Source: Peptococcaceae bacterium (GTDB taxonomy: Bacteria > Bacillota > Desulfotomaculia > Desulfotomaculales > Desulfocucumaceae). Taken from it: DNA of 24,000 bases. Where the stretch lies: assembly GCA_023512435.1 (NCBI GenBank), contig JAILZP010000011.1, positions 31,630 to 55,629 on the forward strand, in the 5' to 3' direction. Of the stretch, positions 18,238 to 24,000 are shown one piece after another. Both the position numbers and the translations under genes were made by a program. Positions within the stretch are counted from its first letter, which is position 1; every line of letters starts with the position of its first letter. The notes under the pieces were generated by a model. It did no database searches. It worked only from the letters and a program-made list of their open reading frames with translations, and was not told the origin of the DNA.

Positions 18238-18543
18238 GTACCGGAAGAACTGGTGGTTAAAATCGCAGGGACGGGTAATCCCTTCGCTATTCCGGTGGCT
18301 GCCCTGATCGGTGTGCCCATGTATATCCGTGCGGAAACCATAATCCCCATCAGCGCAGTACTCCTGGATAAAGGAATGAGCATGGGCGCCGTAATGGCCC
18401 TGGTAATTGGCGGAGCGGGCGCCAGTATCCCGGAAACAATTATCCTGGCCTCCATTTTCCGTCGTGAACTGGTGATATCCTTTATCCTTGCCGTACTGGC
18501 GGTGGCTATTCTGGCCGGTTATTTCTTTGATTTAGTACTGTAA
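18238..18543 (+). pseudogene. 3' fragment (about 101 codons) of a DUF318/COG0701 permease
   Basis: VPEELVVKIAGTGNPFAIPVAALIGVPMYIRAETIIPISAVLLDKGMSMGAVMALVIGGAGASIPE... is the C-terminal third of this permease family. The upstream part of the 205-aa track ORF is non-membrane, lacks similarity, and overlaps the 68-aa gene antisense. Confidence 0.6.
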
Positions 18544-18560
18544 GGAGGGAATGTAAGATC

Positions 18561-18752
18561 ATGAACGATAAGAAAAAAGATGGCCGCAAGGGCTTTCTGG
18601 GTTTGTTCGGTAAGCCCAAAAAAGGTTGCTGCAACATGGATATAGTTGAAGTTGACGCCAAGGAAAAGCAAAAGAGAAGTCGGGGATGCTGTGACATCGA
18701 AATTCTGCCGATAAAAGATGACACGGTAGAAGCGGGCAATGATATAAAAGTC
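18561..18752 (+). pseudogene. 5' part of a GCC-motif / thioredoxin-like gene, truncated at about 18752
   Basis: AAGGAGGG RBS, then MNDKKKDGRKGFLGLFGKPKKGCCNMDIVEVDAKEKQKRSRGCCDIEILPIKDDTVEAGNDIKV. The sequence breaks exactly where ArsE-type proteins continue (IKV)LGxGCxxC. Beyond this point the opposite strand encodes an RT remnant. Confidence 0.45.
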
Positions 18753-19013
18753 CATCTTTCAAAAAGTACGGGCACGTTAGATAAAATGAAATACTGCTTC
18801 CAGCCTCTGAGTACCGGGTTAATCTCAGCTAATATGCCGTCAATGCCATGGTACAGCCTCTCCCGGAAGATGATATCACGAATACGTTGATGCAAACGGT
18901 TGTACGCCTTGTCGCCGGGTTTGATATAGAGACGCTTGATGTATCCGTTACCTAATTTGATGCTGTAGCCAACCGGGCGGTGCCAGGCAGTATCAAGTTT
19001 GATTCATCAAGAC
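18752..19013 (-). pseudogene. remnant of a group II intron reverse transcriptase/maturase (thumb/X region only)
   Basis: My minus-strand translation: IKLDTAWHRPVGYSIKLGNGYIKRLYIKPGDKAYNRLHQRIRDIIFRERLYHGIDGILAEINPVLRGWKQYFILSNVPVLFERW. The motif INPVLRGWKQYF matches the conserved LNPxxRGWxNYF of intron maturases. It is bounded by stops upstream and loses similarity after ERW. Confidence 0.6.
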
Positions 19014-19027
19014 TTTTTTGTCCAACT

Positions 19028-19079
19028 CCTGTCCGACTTTTGTCCGACACCTTGTCCGACTAGTCCCGGAAACCCGCGT
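19028..19079 (+). repeat. four to five tandem direct repeats of TTGTCCGAC with 11-12 nt phasing
   Basis: TTGTCCAAC 19028, CTGTCCGAC 19039, TTGTCCGAC 19050, TTGTCCGAC 19062, degenerate TAGTCCCGG 19071. An inverted GTCGGAC copy lies at 19291-19297, on the other side of the tRNA. Confidence 0.8.
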
Positions 19080-19128
19080 AAATCAAGGGGTACTTGCGGA
19101 ACCATCGGCCTGGCTTCCGCAAAATATT

Positions 19129-19169
19129 AATGCCCGCAAACCCTTGATTTCAGCGGCTTCGCGGGCATT
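19129..19169 (-). terminator. hairpin downstream of the tRNA 3' end
   Basis: AATGCCCGC (19129-19137) pairs with GCGGGCATT (19161-19169) around a 23-nt loop. On the minus strand it is followed by AATATTTT. The long loop makes this weak. Confidence 0.35.
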
Positions 19170-19173
19170 TTAC

Positions 19174-19248
19174 TGGTGCGCCCGGCAGGAATCGAACCTG
19201 CGCTCCCGGCTCCGGAGGCCGGCGCTCTATCCCCTGAGCTACGGGCCT
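19174..19248 (-). tRNA. tRNA-Arg (anticodon CCG), with the top two acceptor base pairs mismatched
   Basis: Hand-folded minus strand: AGGCCCG-TA-GCTC-AGGGGATA-GAGC-G-CCGGC-CTCCGGA-GCCGG-GAGC-GCAGG-TTCGATT-CCTGC-CGGGCGC-A-CCA. The D, anticodon and T arms are perfect. The acceptor pairs at 3-70 to 7-66 only (A1/C72 and G2/G71 clash). A canonical 5' end would be GCGCCCG. Confidence 0.75.
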
Positions 19249-19308
19249 AGGTTTTTCGCACTTTCCCGGCTTCAACCCCCTTTTTGAAGCGTCGGACTCC
19301 CCGGAAAT

Positions 19309-20268
19309 GTGGTGTTGGAAATGGGCCGCAGGCTCATGAAAGTCACTCCTAAAACAGACCGTCCTTGGGATGATTGCTTGAAGGAATTCCTTTTGGTGAA
19401 AGAAGCGGGTGGCCAAGCCCCGCGCACCTTGGCCGACTATCGTTATCACGTCAACCTATTCTTTAAACATCACCCTGAAGCATGGGCTAATTATAACGCG
19501 CTTCGGCAAGCAGTGCTTGAATACTTTGCCATAAGCGCAAAACTTTCTCCCACAACATACAACCTCCGGCGCAAATACCTGAAAGGTTTCTTCGCCTGGG
19601 CCGTATCGGAAGGGATTATCCCGGCCAACCCCATCGATGGGTTGAAGGCCCGTAAGACGGAGGGCCGCATCCGGCATGTCCCGGAGGATGTCCTGCAAAA
19701 GCTCCTGGAACTGCCTAACCGCTCCACTTATGCCGGACTAAGAGATTATGCCCTGCTGCTCCTGTCCCTGGATACCGGCATACGCCCCGGCGAGGCTCTA
19801 GGGCTGCTACCGGGAGACATAAATCTGCCCAGCCTGGAAGTTCGTGTCCGGGCCGATATAGCGAAAACCCGGACAAGCCGCACCTTGCCAATCAGCCAGG
19901 AAACGGCGGCGGCCATCCGAAAACTGTTCTCCGTCCGGCCCGAAGAATGGGGGAATGCCCCTGTTTTCTGCTCTGACAAAGGTAAGCCTCTAAAGGAAAA
20001 CGGCTGGCGGCAACGGCTGGACAAGTATAAAAAAAGGCTGGGTCAGGACATAAGCCCGTATGACCTGCGCCATGCCTTTGCACTTCTATACCTGCGCGGA
20101 GGTGGGGATGCTTTCCATCTCCAGCGGATGATGGGACATTCTGACATGGAAATGACAAAGCACTACCTCGAATTCACCAAGGCCGACCTGAGAGAAACAC
20201 ATTCCCAGGCCAGCCCACTGAACCGGCTCCTGCCAAAAACGCATAGAGCTAGAAAGATAAAAACCTAA
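19309..20268 (+). CDS. int: tyrosine-type site-specific integrase
   Basis: 319 aa. Carries an N-terminal SAM-like core-binding region (TLADYRYHVNLFF), a catalytic domain with LLLLSLDTGIRPGEAL (Arg I), and PYDLRHAFALLYLRGGGDAFHLQRMMGHSDMEMTKHY (HxxR ... H ... Y). The start is ambiguous (GTG 19309, ATG 19318 or ATG 19336). Confidence 0.9.
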   Translation: MVLEMGRRLMKVTPKTDRPWDDCLKEFLLVKEAGGQAPRTLADYRYHVNLFFKHHPEAWANYNALRQAVLEYFAISAKLSPTTYNLRRKYLKGFFAWAVSEGIIPANPIDGLKARKTEGRIRHVPEDVLQKLLELPNRSTYAGLRDYALLLLSLDTGIRPGEALGLLPGDINLPSLEVRVRADIAKTRTSRTLPISQETAAAIRKLFSVRPEEWGNAPVFCSDKGKPLKENGWRQRLDKYKKRLGQDISPYDLRHAFALLYLRGGGDAFHLQRMMGHSDMEMTKHYLEFTKADLRETHSQASPLNRLLPKTHRARKIKT

Positions 20269-20501
20269 TTTTGTACTGGCGTATTACCGCTAGCATTTTT
20301 CTTCTCTGCCACCCACTTCGCCAGTTGCGCCGCCGCATCTACCGCCGCTTCAGCGGCCACATATCCCATACAGGCCATGAGCACGGTATTCACCGCTTCA
20401 TCAGGTATGTCAGGGTAATAGGCTTTCAGACCGGCGACGATTGCCGCAGCCAGGGCCATGAGAAACTTCCTTGACTTCAGGCGCTCAAGCAATGGTCTCA
20501 T
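20265..20501 (-). CDS. small two-helix membrane protein (holin-like or lysis accessory)
   Basis: 78 aa with two hydrophobic segments (FLMALAAAIVAGL; VLMACMGYVAAEAAV). Its ATG overlaps the amidase stop as ATGA. Confidence 0.5.
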   Translation of the reverse strand: MRPLLERLKSRKFLMALAAAIVAGLKAYYPDIPDEAVNTVLMACMGYVAAEAAVDAAAQLAKWVAEKKNASGNTPVQN

Positions 20502-21202
20502 TGTCCTTTCACCACCTTAAGCAGATTTAGCGCAACTGCCAGCACGAACCACTTCGGCGCTGTTTCGTCCGGGTCGTGGTCTTGTGTGATTAAACCGGCT
20601 TGTTTAGCCTTTTCGATAATATCAAACTTCCATTGTTCCGGCATGGTTTGATTTCCTCCTTCTGGCAGAGCAATCCCTAAATATTCCGCAATTCCGGCAG
20701 CAATAGCCTGGGCCGCATGTTGTTGAAAATCTTCTGAAGCCAAAAGAGATTCTTCCTGCATGTTGCTAATGAATGCAATTTCAGCCAATGCCGCCGGGCA
20801 TTCGGTCAGGCGCAAAACGGCGAAATTGGCTTGTTTTACGCCCCGGTCGGCCAGCCGCAGGGCGGCCACCAAGTTTTTTTGTAGGAGAGCGGCCAGCTTT
20901 TTCCCCTCTTCGCTGCCGGGGTAAAAGTAAGTTTCCGTCCCCTGGGCTTTCGGGTTGGCGGCGCTGTTGCAGTGGATTGAGACGAAGCAATCGGCCCCCG
21001 CCTTATTCGCCACGTCTGCGCGGGGGGCAAGGTCTATGTCGTCGTCCCCCTCCCGCGTCAGGATAACTCCCGCTACGGGTTTGAGAATGCTTTTTACCTT
21101 CAGTGCCACAGCCAGGGTAACATCTTTTTCCTGCACGCCAGACTGCCCAATCGCCCCAGGGTCACGCCCACCGTGACCGAGGTCGATAACTACCTTAAAC
21201 AC
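20498..21202 (-). CDS. N-acetylmuramoyl-L-alanine amidase (Amidase_3-type endolysin)
   Basis: VVIDLGHGGRDPGAIG ... SIHCNS ... TETYF are typical of Amidase_3. I prefer the GTG at 21202 (GAGGTG 7 nt upstream) to the track start at 21217. A short C-terminal domain may bind the cell wall. Confidence 0.85.
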   Translation of the reverse strand: MFKVVIDLGHGGRDPGAIGQSGVQEKDVTLAVALKVKSILKPVAGVILTREGDDDIDLAPRADVANKAGADCFVSIHCNSAANPKAQGTETYFYPGSEEGKKLAALLQKNLVAALRLADRGVKQANFAVLRLTECPAALAEIAFISNMQEESLLASEDFQQHAAQAIAAGIAEYLGIALPEGGNQTMPEQWKFDIIEKAKQAGLITQDHDPDETAPKWFVLAVALNLLKVVKGQ

Positions 21203-21479
21203 GTTTAAGCACCTCACTTTCTAATGGCTCAGGAGCGATTTCCGTTTGCTGTTGAATTGTTTGCACCCGCTGGCTCCGGTTAAACCATATCGTTGCGCTT
21301 TCCTGGACGAAGTACCCGCCCAGGATAATGCCCAAAAGCGGTACCAATGTTTGCACCACGGCCAGGGCGTCCTTGCTGCTCAATGCCTTCCAGCAGAAAA
21401 ATAAAAAAGTGCCGCTAAAGCCGACGGCAAGCAGGTCTTTGAAGCTAAACTCATATGGTCGGCTGAAAAAATTCTTCAT
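21195..21479 (-). CDS. putative holin (two TM segments)
   Basis: I place the start at MKNFFSRP... (ATG 21479, 5 nt after the upstream stop). TM segments are LLAVGFSGTFLFFCW and LVPLLGIILGGYF. It lies immediately upstream of and overlaps the amidase gene. Confidence 0.5.
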   Translation of the reverse strand: MKNFFSRPYEFSFKDLLAVGFSGTFLFFCWKALSSKDALAVVQTLVPLLGIILGGYFVQESATIWFNRSQRVQTIQQQTEIAPEPLESEVLKRV

Positions 21480-21483
21480 CCTA

Positions 21484-21723
21484 TCACCGCCTTGCCCGCT
21501 CCAGTAGCTCGTCAATCTTTGCCTCCTGGCGGGTAAGGCTTATCTGAATAGCCTGCACCACAGCCGTCACTTGCTCCAAGGCTTTTGTGTTATTCTGGAT
21601 CACCTCTGCCAGTTCATCATTTCTTCGCCCATCAAAATAGCGGGCCACCACAAATATCAGGCCCGCTACAGCGAAAAAGCCTACCCCATATTGTGCAACC
21701 TCTGCCCAAGGCAATGATACCAC
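21484..21723 (-). CDS. membrane-anchored coiled-coil protein (same position as XhlA in the PBSX lysis module)
   Basis: 79 aa with an N-terminal TM (YGVGFFAVAGLIFVV) and then a heptad-like helix. It is the first gene of the lysis cluster. The start is ambiguous (GTG 21723 or TTG 21714). Confidence 0.4.
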   Translation of the reverse strand: MVSLPWAEVAQYGVGFFAVAGLIFVVARYFDGRRNDELAEVIQNNTKALEQVTAVVQAIQISLTRQEAKIDELLERARR

Positions 21724-21730
21724 CCCCCAG

Positions 21731-21758
21731 CAAAACTAAAGCCGCCTACTTCGGCGGC
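21731..21758 (-). terminator. hairpin plus T-rich tail between the tail and lysis modules
   Basis: Minus strand: GCCGCC-GAAGTA-GGCGGC, then TTTAGTTTTG. It overlaps the stop codon of the 62-aa ORF. Confidence 0.4.
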
Positions 21759-21934
21759 ATGAGGTCTAGTATCTCGATTACCACGTCCAGCTTGGCGTCC
21801 ATGTCTTCCAGCTTTAGCTGGCCCTTCGCCTTCTTCTCGGCGAGGGCGGCGAGTTTGGCCTGGAACTGTTTTCGTTTCTCTATCTTGGGGTCGGCAAAGA
21901 CTACTTTGTTACCGTTAACCTGCTTCAACCGCAT
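21746..21934 (-). CDS. small charged phage protein (62 aa)
   Basis: Lys/Glu-rich helical ORF packed between phage genes. No motif recognised. Confidence 0.4.
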   Translation of the reverse strand: MRLKQVNGNKVVFADPKIEKRKQFQAKLAALAEKKAKGQLKLEDMDAKLDVVIEILDLMPPK

Positions 21935-22262
21935 AAATGGTCACCTCGTTTAGTCGAGTTATCGTCGGTTCTCCTGCCCTGATGCGGATAGTGCCTGGCG
22001 TTGTTGCTGTTATTTGGAGAGTTGCGGTGCGGTTTTTAGGGTCTACTGGCATTGTGGCAATTGGTTCACCTGTGTCGGTGTGGTGGAAAGTGATTTCTGT
22101 TAATGTCGGTTCAACATTAGCAGTTACTATTGCAACATCAACACCATCCGAGGCAATTAAATATTTATCAGTTGAAACTATGGCTTGCAGGGTTTCGTAG
22201 ACCCAGCTTCCCTCCGGCTCCACACAAATAATATCAAGTCCCTCCAACCACAACTCGGCCAT
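21915..22262 (-). CDS. phage structural-module hypothetical protein
   Basis: I place the start at MAELWLEGL (ATG 22262, 5 nt after the upstream stop). The sequence is beta-rich (ATLQITATTPGTIRIRAG). No motif recognised. Confidence 0.45.
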   Translation of the reverse strand: MAELWLEGLDIICVEPEGSWVYETLQAIVSTDKYLIASDGVDVAIVTANVEPTLTEITFHHTDTGEPIATMPVDPKNRTATLQITATTPGTIRIRAGEPTITRLNEVTIYAVEAG

Positions 22263-22267
22263 TCCCG

Positions 22268-23170
22268 TTATACCCCTTTCTTGCAAAGAATAATTGCTCC
22301 ATTTCCCCCCGCACCGCCACTTGCACGACCATAATAAGGTGATGCATAACCTCCTGCTCCTCCCGTAGAGGATATAGTTCCATTGTTCGCCAATGAACGG
22401 TAAACAATTATAATTCCGCCGCCTCCGCCCCCGCCTCCACCGGAAGCATCACCTTGCTGTACATTTTGCCCAGCTATTCCATCTGAACGAATAGCCCCGC
22501 CGGAGTTTATTGTTAAGTTAATGCATTCAATAACCAGTGCTCCGCCACCAGCACCACCAGCACCAGAAATACCTATTCCATTTCTCGCACATGCAGCGCC
22601 AGAACCTCCACCAGCACCGATAATATTTACTAAATCTGTTCTGACAAGTTGCCATAGCGTCGCTGTGTTGTTACTCGCTCCCACACCACCATTTCCTGCA
22701 TACGTGGTAACATAAACACCCGGAGTCCCACGGGAGCCCCCAGATACATCGGTGTCTCCACCCTTACCACCATAAGCGCCATCGCCAGAGCCACCACCAC
22801 CTCCACCAGCACCACCAGCACAAAAACTCCCATTACTTCCTGCATTTCCACTCACGCCGCCAGTACTTGCTGTAACCGCTGCGCCCCCAGGGGCACCTTT
22901 CCCGGACATCGACAACAACCCGCTTATGGTAATGTTTCTGGCAAGAATAATCAGCCCACTTTTCAAGGATGTAACGGTGACCCCCGCCGGGATAGTTAGG
23001 TTATCAAAGCGATACAAATATTTATCTAAGGTTTGGTTGGTACTGGGAGAAAAGTCACCGTCAGCCCCATCGCCAGCAAAAGGGAGCCAGGGAGCCATAA
23101 TAGATGACTGCCCCACTAACTCGTCTCTCAGCAAGATTAGTTGCCCTAAAATAGTACCGTGAACAAACAT
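22268..23170 (-). CDS. glycine-rich phage tail fibre / receptor-binding-type protein
   Basis: 300 aa with long runs such as AGGAGGGGGGSGDGAYGGKGG, GAGGGSG and ASGGGGGGGGGIIIV. These are interspersed with short beta-like segments, as in beta-helical tail fibres. Its start overlaps the upstream stop (TAATG). Confidence 0.55.
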   Translation of the reverse strand: MFVHGTILGQLILLRDELVGQSSIMAPWLPFAGDGADGDFSPSTNQTLDKYLYRFDNLTIPAGVTVTSLKSGLIILARNITISGLLSMSGKGAPGGAAVTASTGGVSGNAGSNGSFCAGGAGGGGGGSGDGAYGGKGGDTDVSGGSRGTPGVYVTTYAGNGGVGASNNTATLWQLVRTDLVNIIGAGGGSGAACARNGIGISGAGGAGGGALVIECINLTINSGGAIRSDGIAGQNVQQGDASGGGGGGGGGIIIVYRSLANNGTISSTGGAGGYASPYYGRASGGAGGNGAIILCKKGV

Positions 23171-23928
23171 TATGAAGCGACCCCCTTCAGCACAACATTG
23201 CCGCTTCTGGTAAGCGACAATTTTTGCCGAATACCAGATGAACCATCAGCGGCTGGGATATACAAATATATTGCAGATAAATACCTTAGCCAAGTATTAG
23301 TGTCAATTGTATACTCGTAGGTGAGACAAGCATTTCCACCGGCAATTTCATGGTATGGAATTGACGTTACGCCAACACCGCTGAACACCTTGAAATGTAT
23401 CGCGTTCTCCGCCGTCCAAGCACCGGAGCCGCCCCTGGCCCGGTAGTAGCAGGGGTAGTTCGCGTCTTGAGAAGTTTCGCCGTGAAGGTGAAAATGATTG
23501 TTTGCATCTCCATTTCCCCGTACAATCAGCCAGTATTGGCTTCCTGACGTAAGCCCCTCCAGTGCAATCGGTATGCTCCAGTAGCTGCGTCCGGTCGGGA
23601 TGAATTCTTTGGGCAAAGTCATGCTTTTTAGCAATGTTCCGTCTGTGCCGGATGGATTAAACCCGCTTCTCAATTCCACCACCAAGTCCGCCCCGGCTCC
23701 GTGCTTGACCAGCTCAAACTCCACCCGTGCCACCTCGGTTGTGCCGGTGGCGGTGAAGCGGATGGCGTGGTCATAGGACGCACAATCAAATTCCGCCGTA
23801 CCGCTTCCGGTTTTGGCGTCGCGCTGGGTGCCTTCGTAAATCAGATAAAAGTCCTGGAGCGAAAGAAGCGAATTCATTGTTGTTTCGTCCAGGACGGTTT
23901 GCCCGTTTTTGAATGCGTATAAAGGCAA
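23170..23928 (-). CDS. phage tail/baseplate-region hypothetical protein
   Basis: 252-aa beta-rich ORF with a TTG start and AAGGAG 10 nt upstream. The call rests on position only. Confidence 0.45.
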   Translation of the reverse strand: MPLYAFKNGQTVLDETTMNSLLSLQDFYLIYEGTQRDAKTGSGTAEFDCASYDHAIRFTATGTTEVARVEFELVKHGAGADLVVELRSGFNPSGTDGTLLKSMTLPKEFIPTGRSYWSIPIALEGLTSGSQYWLIVRGNGDANNHFHLHGETSQDANYPCYYRARGGSGAWTAENAIHFKVFSGVGVTSIPYHEIAGGNACLTYEYTIDTNTWLRYLSAIYLYIPAADGSSGIRQKLSLTRSGNVVLKGVAS

Positions 23929-23942
23929 TTTAGGTCATCTCC

Positions 23943-24000
23943 TTACCCTGCCGAGAAAGTTATCCTCACTTCTATCGTCAGAACCTGATTCGCAGCTTTA
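23943..24000 (-). CDS. 3' end of an upstream phage gene entering from the right edge (...KAANQVLTIEVRITFSAG)
   Basis: Open frame to the window edge, ending at TAA 23945-23943, which overlaps the RBS of the next gene. The frame choice is tentative. Confidence 0.3.
   Translation of the reverse strand, partial: KAANQVLTIEVRITFSAG

What the first reader, a model, noticed from the sequence alone, without database searches (positions are those of the whole stretch)
19028..19297. Helically phased GTCCGAC repeats on both sides of the tRNA core: attP-like arm-site architecture next to the integrase
Four good copies and one degenerate copy of (T)TGTCCGAC lie in direct orientation with 11-11-12-nt spacing at 19028-19079. 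This is on the 3' side of the tRNA. One inverted copy (GTCGGAC, 19291-19297) lies between the tRNA 5' end and the integrase start. Next to it is a GCTTCAA-N8-TTGAAGC hairpin at 19269-19290. One-turn phasing and presence on both flanks of a tRNA-derived core are what arm-type binding sites of tyrosine integrases, or sites for an excisionase or accessory factor, look like. If both arms flank one core, this locus resembles an unrecombined attP rather than an attL or attR. That would imply the DNA to the left, including the junk region and possibly the ars island, belongs to the same mobile element or to a circular replicon.
Basis: partly seen in the sequence, partly recalled or inferred. Interest (0 to 1): 0.6.

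Follow-up and report, generated by a model that had tools for sequence, protein, structure and literature searches.

The report
Relic integrase arm beside prophage junction
The phased GTCCGAC repeats are real, but they are most likely the leftover integrase-binding arm of an older mobile element beside a tRNA gene, into which an unrelated prophage later inserted; this is an ordinary case of elements stacking at a tRNA hot spot, not an unrecombined attP.

Summary
There are three perfect GTCCGAC copies and one 6/7 copy at 19020-19060, spaced 11-11-12 nt. They form the only such cluster in the 3.18-Mb assembly.

The interpretation does not hold.
- The tRNA-Arg(CCG) here is a displaced copy with a broken acceptor stem and no promoter. 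A 76-nt identical block sits on contig C21. There it forms the intact tRNA with its native promoter, and prophage genes lie on its other side. The locus is therefore a recombined prophage junction.
- The adjacent 319-aa integrase is Xer-like along its full length and has no arm-binding domain.
- The lone GTCGGAC at 19291 overlaps a CGGACT motif that recurs upstream of this integrase's homologues.

The array belongs to a conserved module: 3-4 phased repeats, a 25-nt block, a terminator, then the tRNA 3' end. Relatives lacking this phage carry it, at 96-97% identity in two other species whose promoter flank is only 53-69% identical.

In seven elements of a different integrase family, the same motif occurs as a doublet after int and as the array beside the cognate intact tRNA.

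The array is therefore most likely the distal arm of an older element that has decayed or is unassembled. This is known biology, and binding is untested.

The parts
19018..19060 (+). Array of four direct repeats: TTGTCCAAC at 19018, CTGTCCGAC at 19029, TTGTCCGAC at 19040 and TTGTCCGAC at 19052, with an 11-11-12 nt period. Inferred to be the arm-type sites of the distal (P) arm of an older integrative element, here called E1.
   Evidence: Searches show the sequence and its uniqueness in the genome. Searches show conservation in G016 and G018. Searches show that the same kind of array co-varies with a doublet placed after int in seven elements. Searches show a doublet of the same motif next to an integrase in G151.
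19062..19104 (+). Conserved block of the arm, with core CCGGAAACCCGCGTAAATCAAGGGG. An inverted copy occurs in the int-proximal arm of related elements. Probably an accessory-factor site; the function is inferred.
   Evidence: Searches show the block in 16 modules at 5 tRNA species, starting a constant 107-109 nt from the tRNA 3' end in 15 of 16. Searches show the inverted copy 20 nt from the core in int-proximal arms.
19094..19171 (.). Two hairpins: TTGCGGAA/TTCCGCAA at 19094-19122, and TGCCCGC/GCGGGCA at 19131-19167 with flanking A and T runs. The second is a bidirectional terminator for the tRNA and is carried as part of the arm.
   Evidence: Read directly from the sequence. The terminator is conserved in position in all modules.
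19171..19246 (-). 76-nt identity block, the att core of the prophage. It covers tRNA-Arg(CCG) nucleotides 3-75 plus 3 nt downstream. The window copy (tRNA call 19174-19248) has A1 and G2 instead of G1 and C2 and has no promoter, so it is a displaced pseudo-copy.
   Evidence: One search gives a 100% match to C21:3560-3635. Searches show the acceptor-stem mismatch and the native promoter only on C21. One search is the ARAGORN result.
19247..19308 (+). Int-proximal arm of the prophage. It holds the inverted repeat at 19269-19290 and GTCGGACTCCCC at 19291-19302. CGGACTCCCC and CCCCCTTTTT each recur in the phage's other arm (C21:3505 and C21:3511).
   Evidence: CGGACT lies at -80 to -85 in 7 of 19 homologous integrase loci, against a background of 0.03 per 110 nt.
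19309..20268 (+). Prophage tyrosine integrase, 319 aa as an ORF, with a likely ATG start at 19336. It is Xer-like and has no N-terminal arm-binding domain.
   Evidence: Pfam Phage_integrase plus SAM_1. PHROG integrase. Aligns to the XerC-like structure 4a8e over residues 15-312.
20265..24000 (-). Start of the prophage body: small membrane protein, Amidase_3 endolysin, holin-like genes and tail-fibre-like genes. It continues to the end of contig C25 with tape measure, major head, portal, large terminase and replisome organiser genes.
18506..18985 (-). 5'-truncated remnant of a group II intron maturase. Similarity to the G016/G018 arm stops at 19002, so this marks where the older element is broken off in this genome.
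   Evidence: Pfam GIIM. Alignment break. The ORF that follows the arm in G018 has no homologue anywhere in G000.

Best explanation
The locus is a composite scar of two unrelated integration events at one tRNA-Arg(CCG) gene.

Step 1 (inferred from comparison). [quoted passage not shown] The crossover lay in the T-loop-to-CCA segment. As in every member of that family, the element replaced the tRNA's 3' trailer with its own distal arm: a terminator, a conserved ~25-nt block, and four 11-bp-phased direct repeats (here TGTCCGAC). These repeats are the arm-type sites that the integrase N-domain would bind to build the intasome. Two more copies of the motif normally sit just after the int gene, at the element's other end.

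Step 2 (shown only as absence). That element's body and int end were lost or are unassembled. The arm now abuts a group II intron remnant.

Step 3 (shown). A siphovirus-type prophage with a Xer-like integrase recombined with the same tRNA through a 76-nt core. This moved the promoter and the first two tRNA nucleotides to the far end of the prophage (contig C21). It left here a displaced tRNA copy with the old element's arm on one side and the phage's int arm on the other.

The resemblance to an attP with two arms comes from this stacking. The array is most likely inert today.
For: Recombined junction:
- A 76-nt exact duplicate lies at C21:3560-3635.
- The C21 copy has G1-C2, the promoter conserved in 12 relatives, and host mdh beyond it. 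The window copy has A1-G2.
- C21:1-3461 carries HTH, ImmA, SLATT and TIR genes.
- C25 to the right of int carries lysis, tail, head, portal, large terminase and replication genes.

The array is not the phage's:
- It is 96-97% identical in G016 and G018, which lack this integrase, while their promoter flank is only 53-69% identical.
- Modules of the same design lie 3' of tRNA-Arg, Pro and Val genes across the order.

The array looks like arm-type sites:
- In at least 25 loci of the other integrase family, the order is int stop, 2 direct repeats at 11-12 bp period, block, 20 nt, tRNA 3' core.
- In G096, G117, G066, G069 and G057, on single contigs, the same motif recurs as a 3-4x array next to the intact cognate tRNA, 10-44 kb upstream. 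G030 and G001 show the same pairing across two contigs.
- Four to five motif classes co-vary between the two arms.
- The distance from block to tRNA is fixed at 107-109 nt in 15 of 16 modules.
- A TGTCCGAC doublet follows an integrase of this family in G151.
- An HTH_17 Xis-like gene precedes int in G001.

The phage integrase has no arm-binding domain: it aligns to a XerC-like structure over residues 15-312.
Against: - No protein-DNA binding has been tested.
- No partner doublet, no 24-nt tRNA-Arg core copy and no integrase of the family exists in the G000 assembly, which is 88% complete. The older element is therefore inferred only from its arm.
- The N-terminal domain of the other integrase family has no Pfam hit. 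Its only link to a known arm-binding domain is a weak alignment to lambda Int that starts at Int residue 41.
- Some genomes carry well-kept arrays with no matching doublet: G033, G022 and G151 lack the partner. In G002 the module directly follows copA.
- C25 and C21 are not physically joined in the assembly.
- An assembler could mis-pair flanks across a 76-nt repeat. Read evidence could not be obtained.
Confidence: 0.72

Rival explanations
1. The locus is an intact, unrecombined attP. The GTCCGAC copies on both sides of the tRNA core are arm sites for the adjacent integrase or its excisionase, and the DNA to the left belongs to the same element or replicon.
For: Repeats and a matching heptamer do lie on both sides of a tRNA-derived core next to an integrase. 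The contigs are not closed, so topology is unknown.
Against: - A second core copy has phage genes beside it and carries no repeat motif.
- The left arm is conserved at 96-97% in species that lack this integrase.
- The integrase has no arm-binding domain.
- The right-hand heptamer overlaps the family-specific CGGACT motif.
- Genes to the left are metabolic and ars genes plus decayed fragments, with no phage genes.
Confidence: 0.03
2. The array is a set of iterons or operator boxes: binding sites for a replication initiator or a winged-helix or response-regulator protein. On this view it acts as an origin or as a promoter element for a short transcript that ends at the bidirectional terminator. 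It would not be a recombination arm.
For: - An 11-bp period of TGTC-type repeats is also typical of iterons and of OmpR/PhoB-type boxes (my own knowledge).
- The prophage's own origin, inside its replisome-organiser gene, uses the very similar unit TTGTCTGCA.
- Non-coding TGTCCGAC arrays occur in unrelated viral contigs.
- Arrays outnumber integrases in some genomes.
Against: - The motif recurs specifically as a doublet immediately after int, on the other side of the tRNA core, and co-varies with it in seven elements.
- No rep gene is consistently adjacent. Neighbours range from TcpC to DUF3987 to copA.
- No promoter is conserved.
- The fixed 107-109 nt distance to the tRNA end fits intasome geometry.
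Confidence: 0.1
3. The module encodes a structured small RNA on the + strand (repeats, block, hairpins, terminator) that is conserved next to tRNA genes.
For: Hairpins and a terminator are present. The palindrome GGGTTCC-N4-GGAACCC is kept in many modules, with some compensatory change.
Against: - Rfam finds only the tRNA.
- No promoter is conserved.
- The block also occurs in inverted orientation in the other arm, just after int, where it would be in a different transcript.
- The repeat unit changes wholesale between lineages while the copies within one array stay uniform. This is the pattern of a co-evolving protein site.
- No dedicated covariation test was run.
Confidence: 0.04
4. An assembly artefact. 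The 76-nt repeat was mis-paired, so the true population holds an intact host locus (array, tRNA, promoter, mdh) plus an episomal or otherwise located phage attP (ImmA, arm, core, arm, int).
For: - This is a draft MAG-like assembly of 80 contigs.
- C25 and C21 do not overlap.
- The phage attP would then have CGGACTCCCC on both arms.
- In this phage the core is inverted relative to int when compared with 19 homologues, which is unusual.
Against: - Both contigs read through the repeat in the integrated configuration, and a 76-nt repeat is normally spanned by reads.
- This rival would change only the junction. The array would still be on the host or older-element side.
Confidence: 0.08

Closest known systems
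Arm-type sites of heterobivalent tyrosine integrases (lambda P1/P2/P'1-3, mycobacteriophage L5, HP1, Tn916, phage mv4)
   Same: Short direct repeats at about one helical turn, on both arms of attP, at fixed distances from a core that overlaps a tRNA 3' end. The integrase carries an extra N-terminal segment. An Xis-like HTH gene lies next to int. General architecture as summarised in bioRxiv 10.1101/2023.11.06.565760.
   Different: - Here only the distal arm survives and no cognate integrase is in the genome.
- This family has a 4+2 site layout.
- It carries its own tRNA terminator inside the arm.
- It has a ~25-nt block repeated in inverted orientation on the two arms.
- None of this has been tested biochemically.
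Tandem accretion of integrated elements and CIME-type relics at tRNA genes (Streptococcus ICESt1/ICESt3-type; review PMC5704250)
   Same: A first element integrates at the 3' end of a tRNA and decays. A second element with a distantly related integrase then integrates at the same gene, giving hybrid junctions (for the model; for this locus).
   Different: A CIME keeps both attL and attR, whereas only one arm is found here. The second element is a prophage whose core spans almost the whole tRNA and which lies on the tRNA's 5' side, so the two elements flank the displaced copy.
Prophage attL/attR at tRNA genes with a displaced partial tRNA copy
   Same: A direct repeat of tRNA sequence lies at both prophage ends. 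One copy is functional and the other is truncated.
   Different: The identity block is unusually long at 76 nt (tRNA nucleotides 3-75 plus 3). The integrase sits on the 5' side of the displaced copy and is divergent from it. In contrast, 19 homologous integrases sit 130-190 nt downstream of an intact tRNA in the same orientation.
Iterons of phage and plasmid replication origins
   Same: Tandem TGTC-type repeats with an 11-12 bp period. The resident prophage's own origin has TTGTCTGCA repeats.
   Different: The window array is not in or next to a replication gene, and its relatives pair with doublets placed after int across an att core.

Membership tests
Arm-type (P-arm) sites of a heterobivalent tyrosine integrase | Several short direct repeats, roughly helically phased, within ~200 bp of the att core | tested here: met
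   Four repeats with an 11-11-12 nt period, 111-153 nt from the tRNA 3' end.
Arm-type (P-arm) sites of a heterobivalent tyrosine integrase | The same motif is present in the other arm, next to the integrase gene of the same element | tested here: inconclusive
   Met in seven related elements with 4-5 motif classes. For the window's own motif no partner exists in G000, G016 or G018. A TGTCCGAC doublet after an int of this family exists in G151.
Arm-type (P-arm) sites of a heterobivalent tyrosine integrase | A cognate integrase with an N-terminal arm-binding domain | tested here: inconclusive
   Family members have ~65 extra N-terminal residues before the SAM-like domain and align to lambda Int from its residue 41. 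The N-terminus has no Pfam hit. No member is in G000.
Arm-type (P-arm) sites of a heterobivalent tyrosine integrase | The integrase N-domain binds the repeats, and the repeats are needed for recombination | not testable with these tools
   Needs EMSA, footprinting or in vitro recombination.
Unrecombined attP of the adjacent integrase | Both arms belong to the same element as the integrase | tested here: not met
   The left arm is 96-97% identical in G016 and G018, which lack this integrase. The phage's real second arm is on C21.
Unrecombined attP of the adjacent integrase | No attL/attR pair, meaning no second core copy bounded by the element's genes | tested here: not met
   C21:3560-3635 is a 76-nt exact copy with phage genes on its inner side.
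Unrecombined attP of the adjacent integrase | The integrase is able to read arm sites | tested here: not met
   The 319-aa protein aligns to a XerC-like structure over residues 15-312 and has no extra N-terminal domain.
Prophage junction (attL/attR) in a tRNA gene | Direct repeat of the core at both ends, phage genes between them, and one intact plus one truncated tRNA copy | tested here: met
   Caveat: the two ends are on separate contigs with no overlap, and reads were not available.
CIME / tandem accretion | A decayed first element that retains att sites, with a second element integrated at the same target | tested here: inconclusive
   One arm of the first element is retained and its neighbouring cargo is missing. 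No second att site of the first element was found.
Replication-origin iterons | Repeats lie within or next to an initiator gene and an AT-rich unwinding region | tested here: not met
   No replication gene adjoins the array here or consistently in relatives.

The most novel reading that the evidence does not exclude
The module may define an undescribed attP architecture for a large clade of Bacillota integrases. In this architecture the element brings its own tRNA terminator. A ~25-nt block, repeated in inverted orientation at fixed distances on both arms, would be the docking site of a dedicated accessory factor: the HTH_17 Xis-like protein or a host nucleoid protein. Orphan four-site arms left at tRNA genes would stay functional as integrase sinks or landing pads that steer later integrations and tandem stacking. 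That would explain why they are kept intact in genomes without a matching integrase.
Probability: 0.2. Interest if true: 0.45.

Novelty: new member of a known kind. Interest (0 to 1): 0.3.

Why it matters
For this genome, the result corrects the annotation in three ways.
- The tRNA-Arg in the window is a pseudo-copy, and the working gene is on another contig.
- The prophage boundary is at 19247.
- The ars and junk region does not belong to the prophage.

More generally, it gives a sequence-level description of both att arms for an integrase clade found in about a quarter of the genomes of this Peptococcaceae/Desulfotomaculia-type order. The description covers motif classes, spacing and a shared block. 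Few integrase/attP systems have been dissected outside Gammaproteobacteria, so this gives ready-made substrates for binding and recombination assays. It also gives a simple signature for delimiting islands at tRNA genes in these genomes. It does not reveal a new kind of mechanism.

Tried and rejected
- Rfam scan of 18800-19400 at a permissive E-value found only the tRNA.
- An IMG/VR scan for three phased GTCCGAC copies gave 95 hits. All were coding repeats or unrelated non-coding arrays, and none had the conserved block.
- A scan of species-representative genomes with a strict block pattern gave only 8 hits, mostly relatives already known. It was useful mainly for organism names such as Peptococcaceae and Desulfocucumis.
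- Searching IMG/VR with either integrase gave only 26-32% identical relatives, or none, so no free attP could be examined.
- A pattern search for a GTCCGAC doublet in the family found only the three arrays themselves.
- I looked for a second tRNA-Arg 3' core within 10-20 kb of the module in G001, G005, G014, G018 and G033 and found none.
- G027 has a 6.4-kb interval between a partial and a full tRNA-Arg, but its far end has no array.
- No contig-end overlaps link C25 to C21.
- Synteny with G001 to delimit the left-hand island found only the ACR3 gene shared, so no boundary could be set.
- The integrase N-termini had no Pfam hit even at E = 1.
- I considered Tn7- or Mu-type transposon ends and DnaA or CtsR boxes, and dropped them on repeat length and spacing. 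This rests on my own knowledge and was not tested.
- I did not fold the integrase N-domain, because the locus came from a tool whose sequences the folding tool does not accept.

Full report
**Observation**

The + strand reads GTCCAAC at 19020 and GTCCGAC at 19031, 19042 and 19054, each preceded by TT or CT. The period is 11-11-12 nt. The next candidate, GTCCCGG at 19063, matches only 4 of 7 positions and is really the start of a different conserved block. The whole 3.18-Mb assembly holds 303 copies of the heptamer on both strands, and this is its only cluster of three. GTCGGAC at 19291-19297 and the GCTTCAA-N8-TTGAAGC inverted repeat at 19269-19290 are exactly as described. ARAGORN places tRNA-Arg(CCG) at 19174-19248 on the minus strand.

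**The tRNA is a displaced copy and the locus is a recombined prophage junction**

- Window 19171-19246 (tRNA nucleotides 3-75 plus 3 nt downstream) is 100% identical to C21:3560-3635.
- The C21 copy starts G1-C2, which pairs with the 3' strand of the acceptor stem. The window copy starts A1-G2, which does not.
- Beyond its 5' end, the C21 copy has the TTGCA...TATAAT promoter found in 12 relatives, followed by malate/lactate dehydrogenase. The window copy has phage DNA there.
- The other side of the C21 copy (C21:1-3461) carries Cro/CI-type HTH, two ImmA-type peptidases, a SLATT protein and a ThsB-type TIR protein, with PHROG matches.
- To the right of the window integrase, contig C25 runs through a lysis cassette, tail genes, tape measure, major head, portal, large terminase, ParB-like, helicase loader and replisome organiser genes to its end.
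- The prophage is therefore at least 36 kb, bounded by the two 76-nt copies.
- No GTCCGAC or GTCGGAC occurs in C21:1-6000.

**The adjacent integrase is not a plausible reader of arm sites**

It has a SAM-like domain at residues 32-102 and a catalytic domain at 125-289. It aligns to a XerC-like structure over residues 15-312, which leaves no room for an arm-binding domain.

Nineteen homologues (44-55% identity) in the same order normally sit 130-190 nt downstream of an intact tRNA or tmRNA gene, in the same orientation. In the window the core is inverted relative to int. This is unusual and unexplained.

In 7 of those 19 loci, CGGACT lies 80-85 nt upstream of the start. The background is 0.03 per 110 nt. 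The window's GTCGGACTCCCC contains this motif, and CGGACTCCCC recurs in the phage's other arm on C21. The 'inverted copy' therefore belongs to the phage's own int-upstream region. It is not a copy of the array.

**The array belongs to a mobile, conserved tRNA-flank module**

A search of 40 relatives found window 19002-19246 at about 98% identity in G016 and G018, which belong to another genus. In both, similarity ends exactly at the edge of the prophage core. Neither genome has a homologue of the window integrase at the threshold used.

| Comparison | Identity |
|---|---|
| Array-side flank, window vs G016 and G018 | 96-97% |
| Promoter-side flank, C21 copy vs G016 and G018 | 53-69% |
| Promoter-side flank, G016 vs G018 | 61% |

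The flank has therefore moved horizontally.

Other genera carry the same design with a different repeat unit: GTCTGAA, TGCCTGA, GGTCTGCAT or GGTCTGCC. The order is 3-4 repeats, then a block resembling AGTACCGGAAACCCGCGwAAATCAAGGGTTCC, then a bidirectional terminator, then the tRNA 3' end. The tRNA is not only Arg(CCG) but also Pro(CGG), Pro(GGG), Val(CAC), Val(GAC) and Val(TAC). The distance from block start to tRNA end is 107-109 nt in 15 of 16 modules, even though the intervening terminators differ.

**Link to a second integrase family**

Integrases of about 360-400 aa, whose N-terminus starts like MAQIRRRGPNKYLI, were found in 43 of the 161 other genomes of the order searched; G000 itself had no match.

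- In at least 25 loci, the gene is followed by two direct repeats with an 11-12 bp period, then an inverted copy of the block, then 20 nt, then a 20-24-nt tRNA 3' end (T-loop to CCA), then an older flank.
- The doublet motifs, read on the module strand, are TGTCTGAC, TGTCCGAC, GGTCTGCC, GTCTGCA and TGCCTGAC. This is the same spectrum seen in the arrays.
- On single contigs, the doublet after int and a 3-4x array of the same motif lie on the same strand, 10-44 kb apart. The array sits beside the intact tRNA whose 3' end matches the partial copy at int. The cases are G096 (Pro-GGG, 44 kb), G117 (Val-TAC, 16 kb), and G066, G069 and G057 (Val-GAC; 19, 19 and 10 kb).
- G030 (Arg) and G001 (Pro-CGG) show the same pairing across two contigs.
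- G001's int is preceded by an HTH_17 excisionase-like ORF.
- The integrase aligns weakly to full-length lambda Int from Int residue 41. Its N-terminus has no Pfam hit.
- A doublet with the window's own motif follows such an integrase in G151.

This two-arm layout, with co-varying repeats, fixed spacing, adjacency to int and a tRNA 3' core, is how attP of heterobivalent integrases is organised (and my own knowledge of lambda, L5 and Tn916). I therefore read the window array as the distal arm of such an element.

**What is missing**

G000 has no integrase of this family, no second GTCCGAC doublet and no 24-nt tRNA-Arg core copy. The 410-aa ORF that follows the arm in G018, upstream of a TcpC conjugation gene, has no homologue in G000. 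Similarity to G016 and G018 stops at 19002, where a 5'-truncated group II intron maturase begins. So the older element is truncated or unassembled here.

Whether the ars genes further left were its cargo cannot be decided. Only ACR3 is shared with the congeneric G001 at this locus.

**Synthesis**

The first element leaves its arm at the tRNA. The prophage then integrates into the same tRNA and displaces the copy that carries that arm. This matches the published model of decay followed by accretion at tRNA genes (PMC5704250). It also explains why the locus mimics an attP.

**Rivals**

- Iterons or regulator boxes remain possible, because similar TGTC-type arrays serve as the prophage's own origin and because some genomes hold orphan arrays. 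But this rival does not explain the doublets placed after int.
- A small RNA is unlikely, given the inverted block in the other arm and the absence of any Rfam match or conserved promoter.
- An assembly mis-pairing would alter only the junction, not the origin of the array.

**Verdict**

The arm-site idea survives, but for a different and absent integrase. The result is a new, well-documented member of a known kind.

Noticed in passing
G000:C25:77870-77990 (L003:7870-7990), outside the window: Six to eight TTGTCTGCA repeats, direct and inverted, with a 12-bp period. They lie inside the prophage's replisome-organiser / O-like gene (L003:7362-8312, minus strand), next to a DnaC/IstB-like loader. 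This is probably the phage origin. The unit resembles the arm-repeat motifs of the other integrase family.
   Followed up: partly
window 19247-19308 and G000:C21:3462-3559: The two arms of the prophage attP share CGGACTCCCC and CCCCCTTTTT in direct orientation. CGGACT is conserved 80-85 nt upstream of int in 7 of 19 homologues, often as half of an inverted repeat. It is a candidate operator or accessory site for the Xer-like integrase family.
   Followed up: partly
window 19171-20268: In this prophage the tRNA-derived core is 76 nt long and inverted relative to int, and int abuts the lysis cassette. In contrast, 19 homologous integrases sit just downstream of an intact tRNA or tmRNA in the same orientation. 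The rearranged att-int module is unexplained.
   Followed up: partly
G000:C21:1858-2975 (L001): A SLATT/DUF4231 gene and a ThsB-type TIR gene sit at the prophage end next to attR, between two ImmA-like peptidase genes. They look like a phage-borne defence cassette.
   Followed up: no
G000:C1:1300-1600 (L022): A second relic module in the same genome. It has degenerate repeats (TGTCTGAC, TGCCTGAA, TATCCGAAC), the conserved block and a terminator, joined to only the 3' 45 nt of a tRNA-Val(CAC). This is the displaced flank of yet another integration.
   Followed up: partly
window 18506-18985 (-): A remnant of a group II intron maturase (GIIM domain only), 5'-truncated about 17 nt from the edge of the conserved arm.
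   Followed up: partly
G018:C97:15220-17400 (L016:520-2684): In G018, the same arm (97% identical) is followed by a 410-aa membrane or secreted ORF with no Pfam hit and then a TcpC conjugation protein. This suggests the TGTCCGAC-type element there is conjugative.
   Followed up: no
L193 (G044:C6, around 108457-109536): Downstream of one integrase's tRNA-Arg core lies a complete older module with a different motif (GGTGTGC x3). This is layered relics of successive integrations at one tRNA.
   Followed up: no
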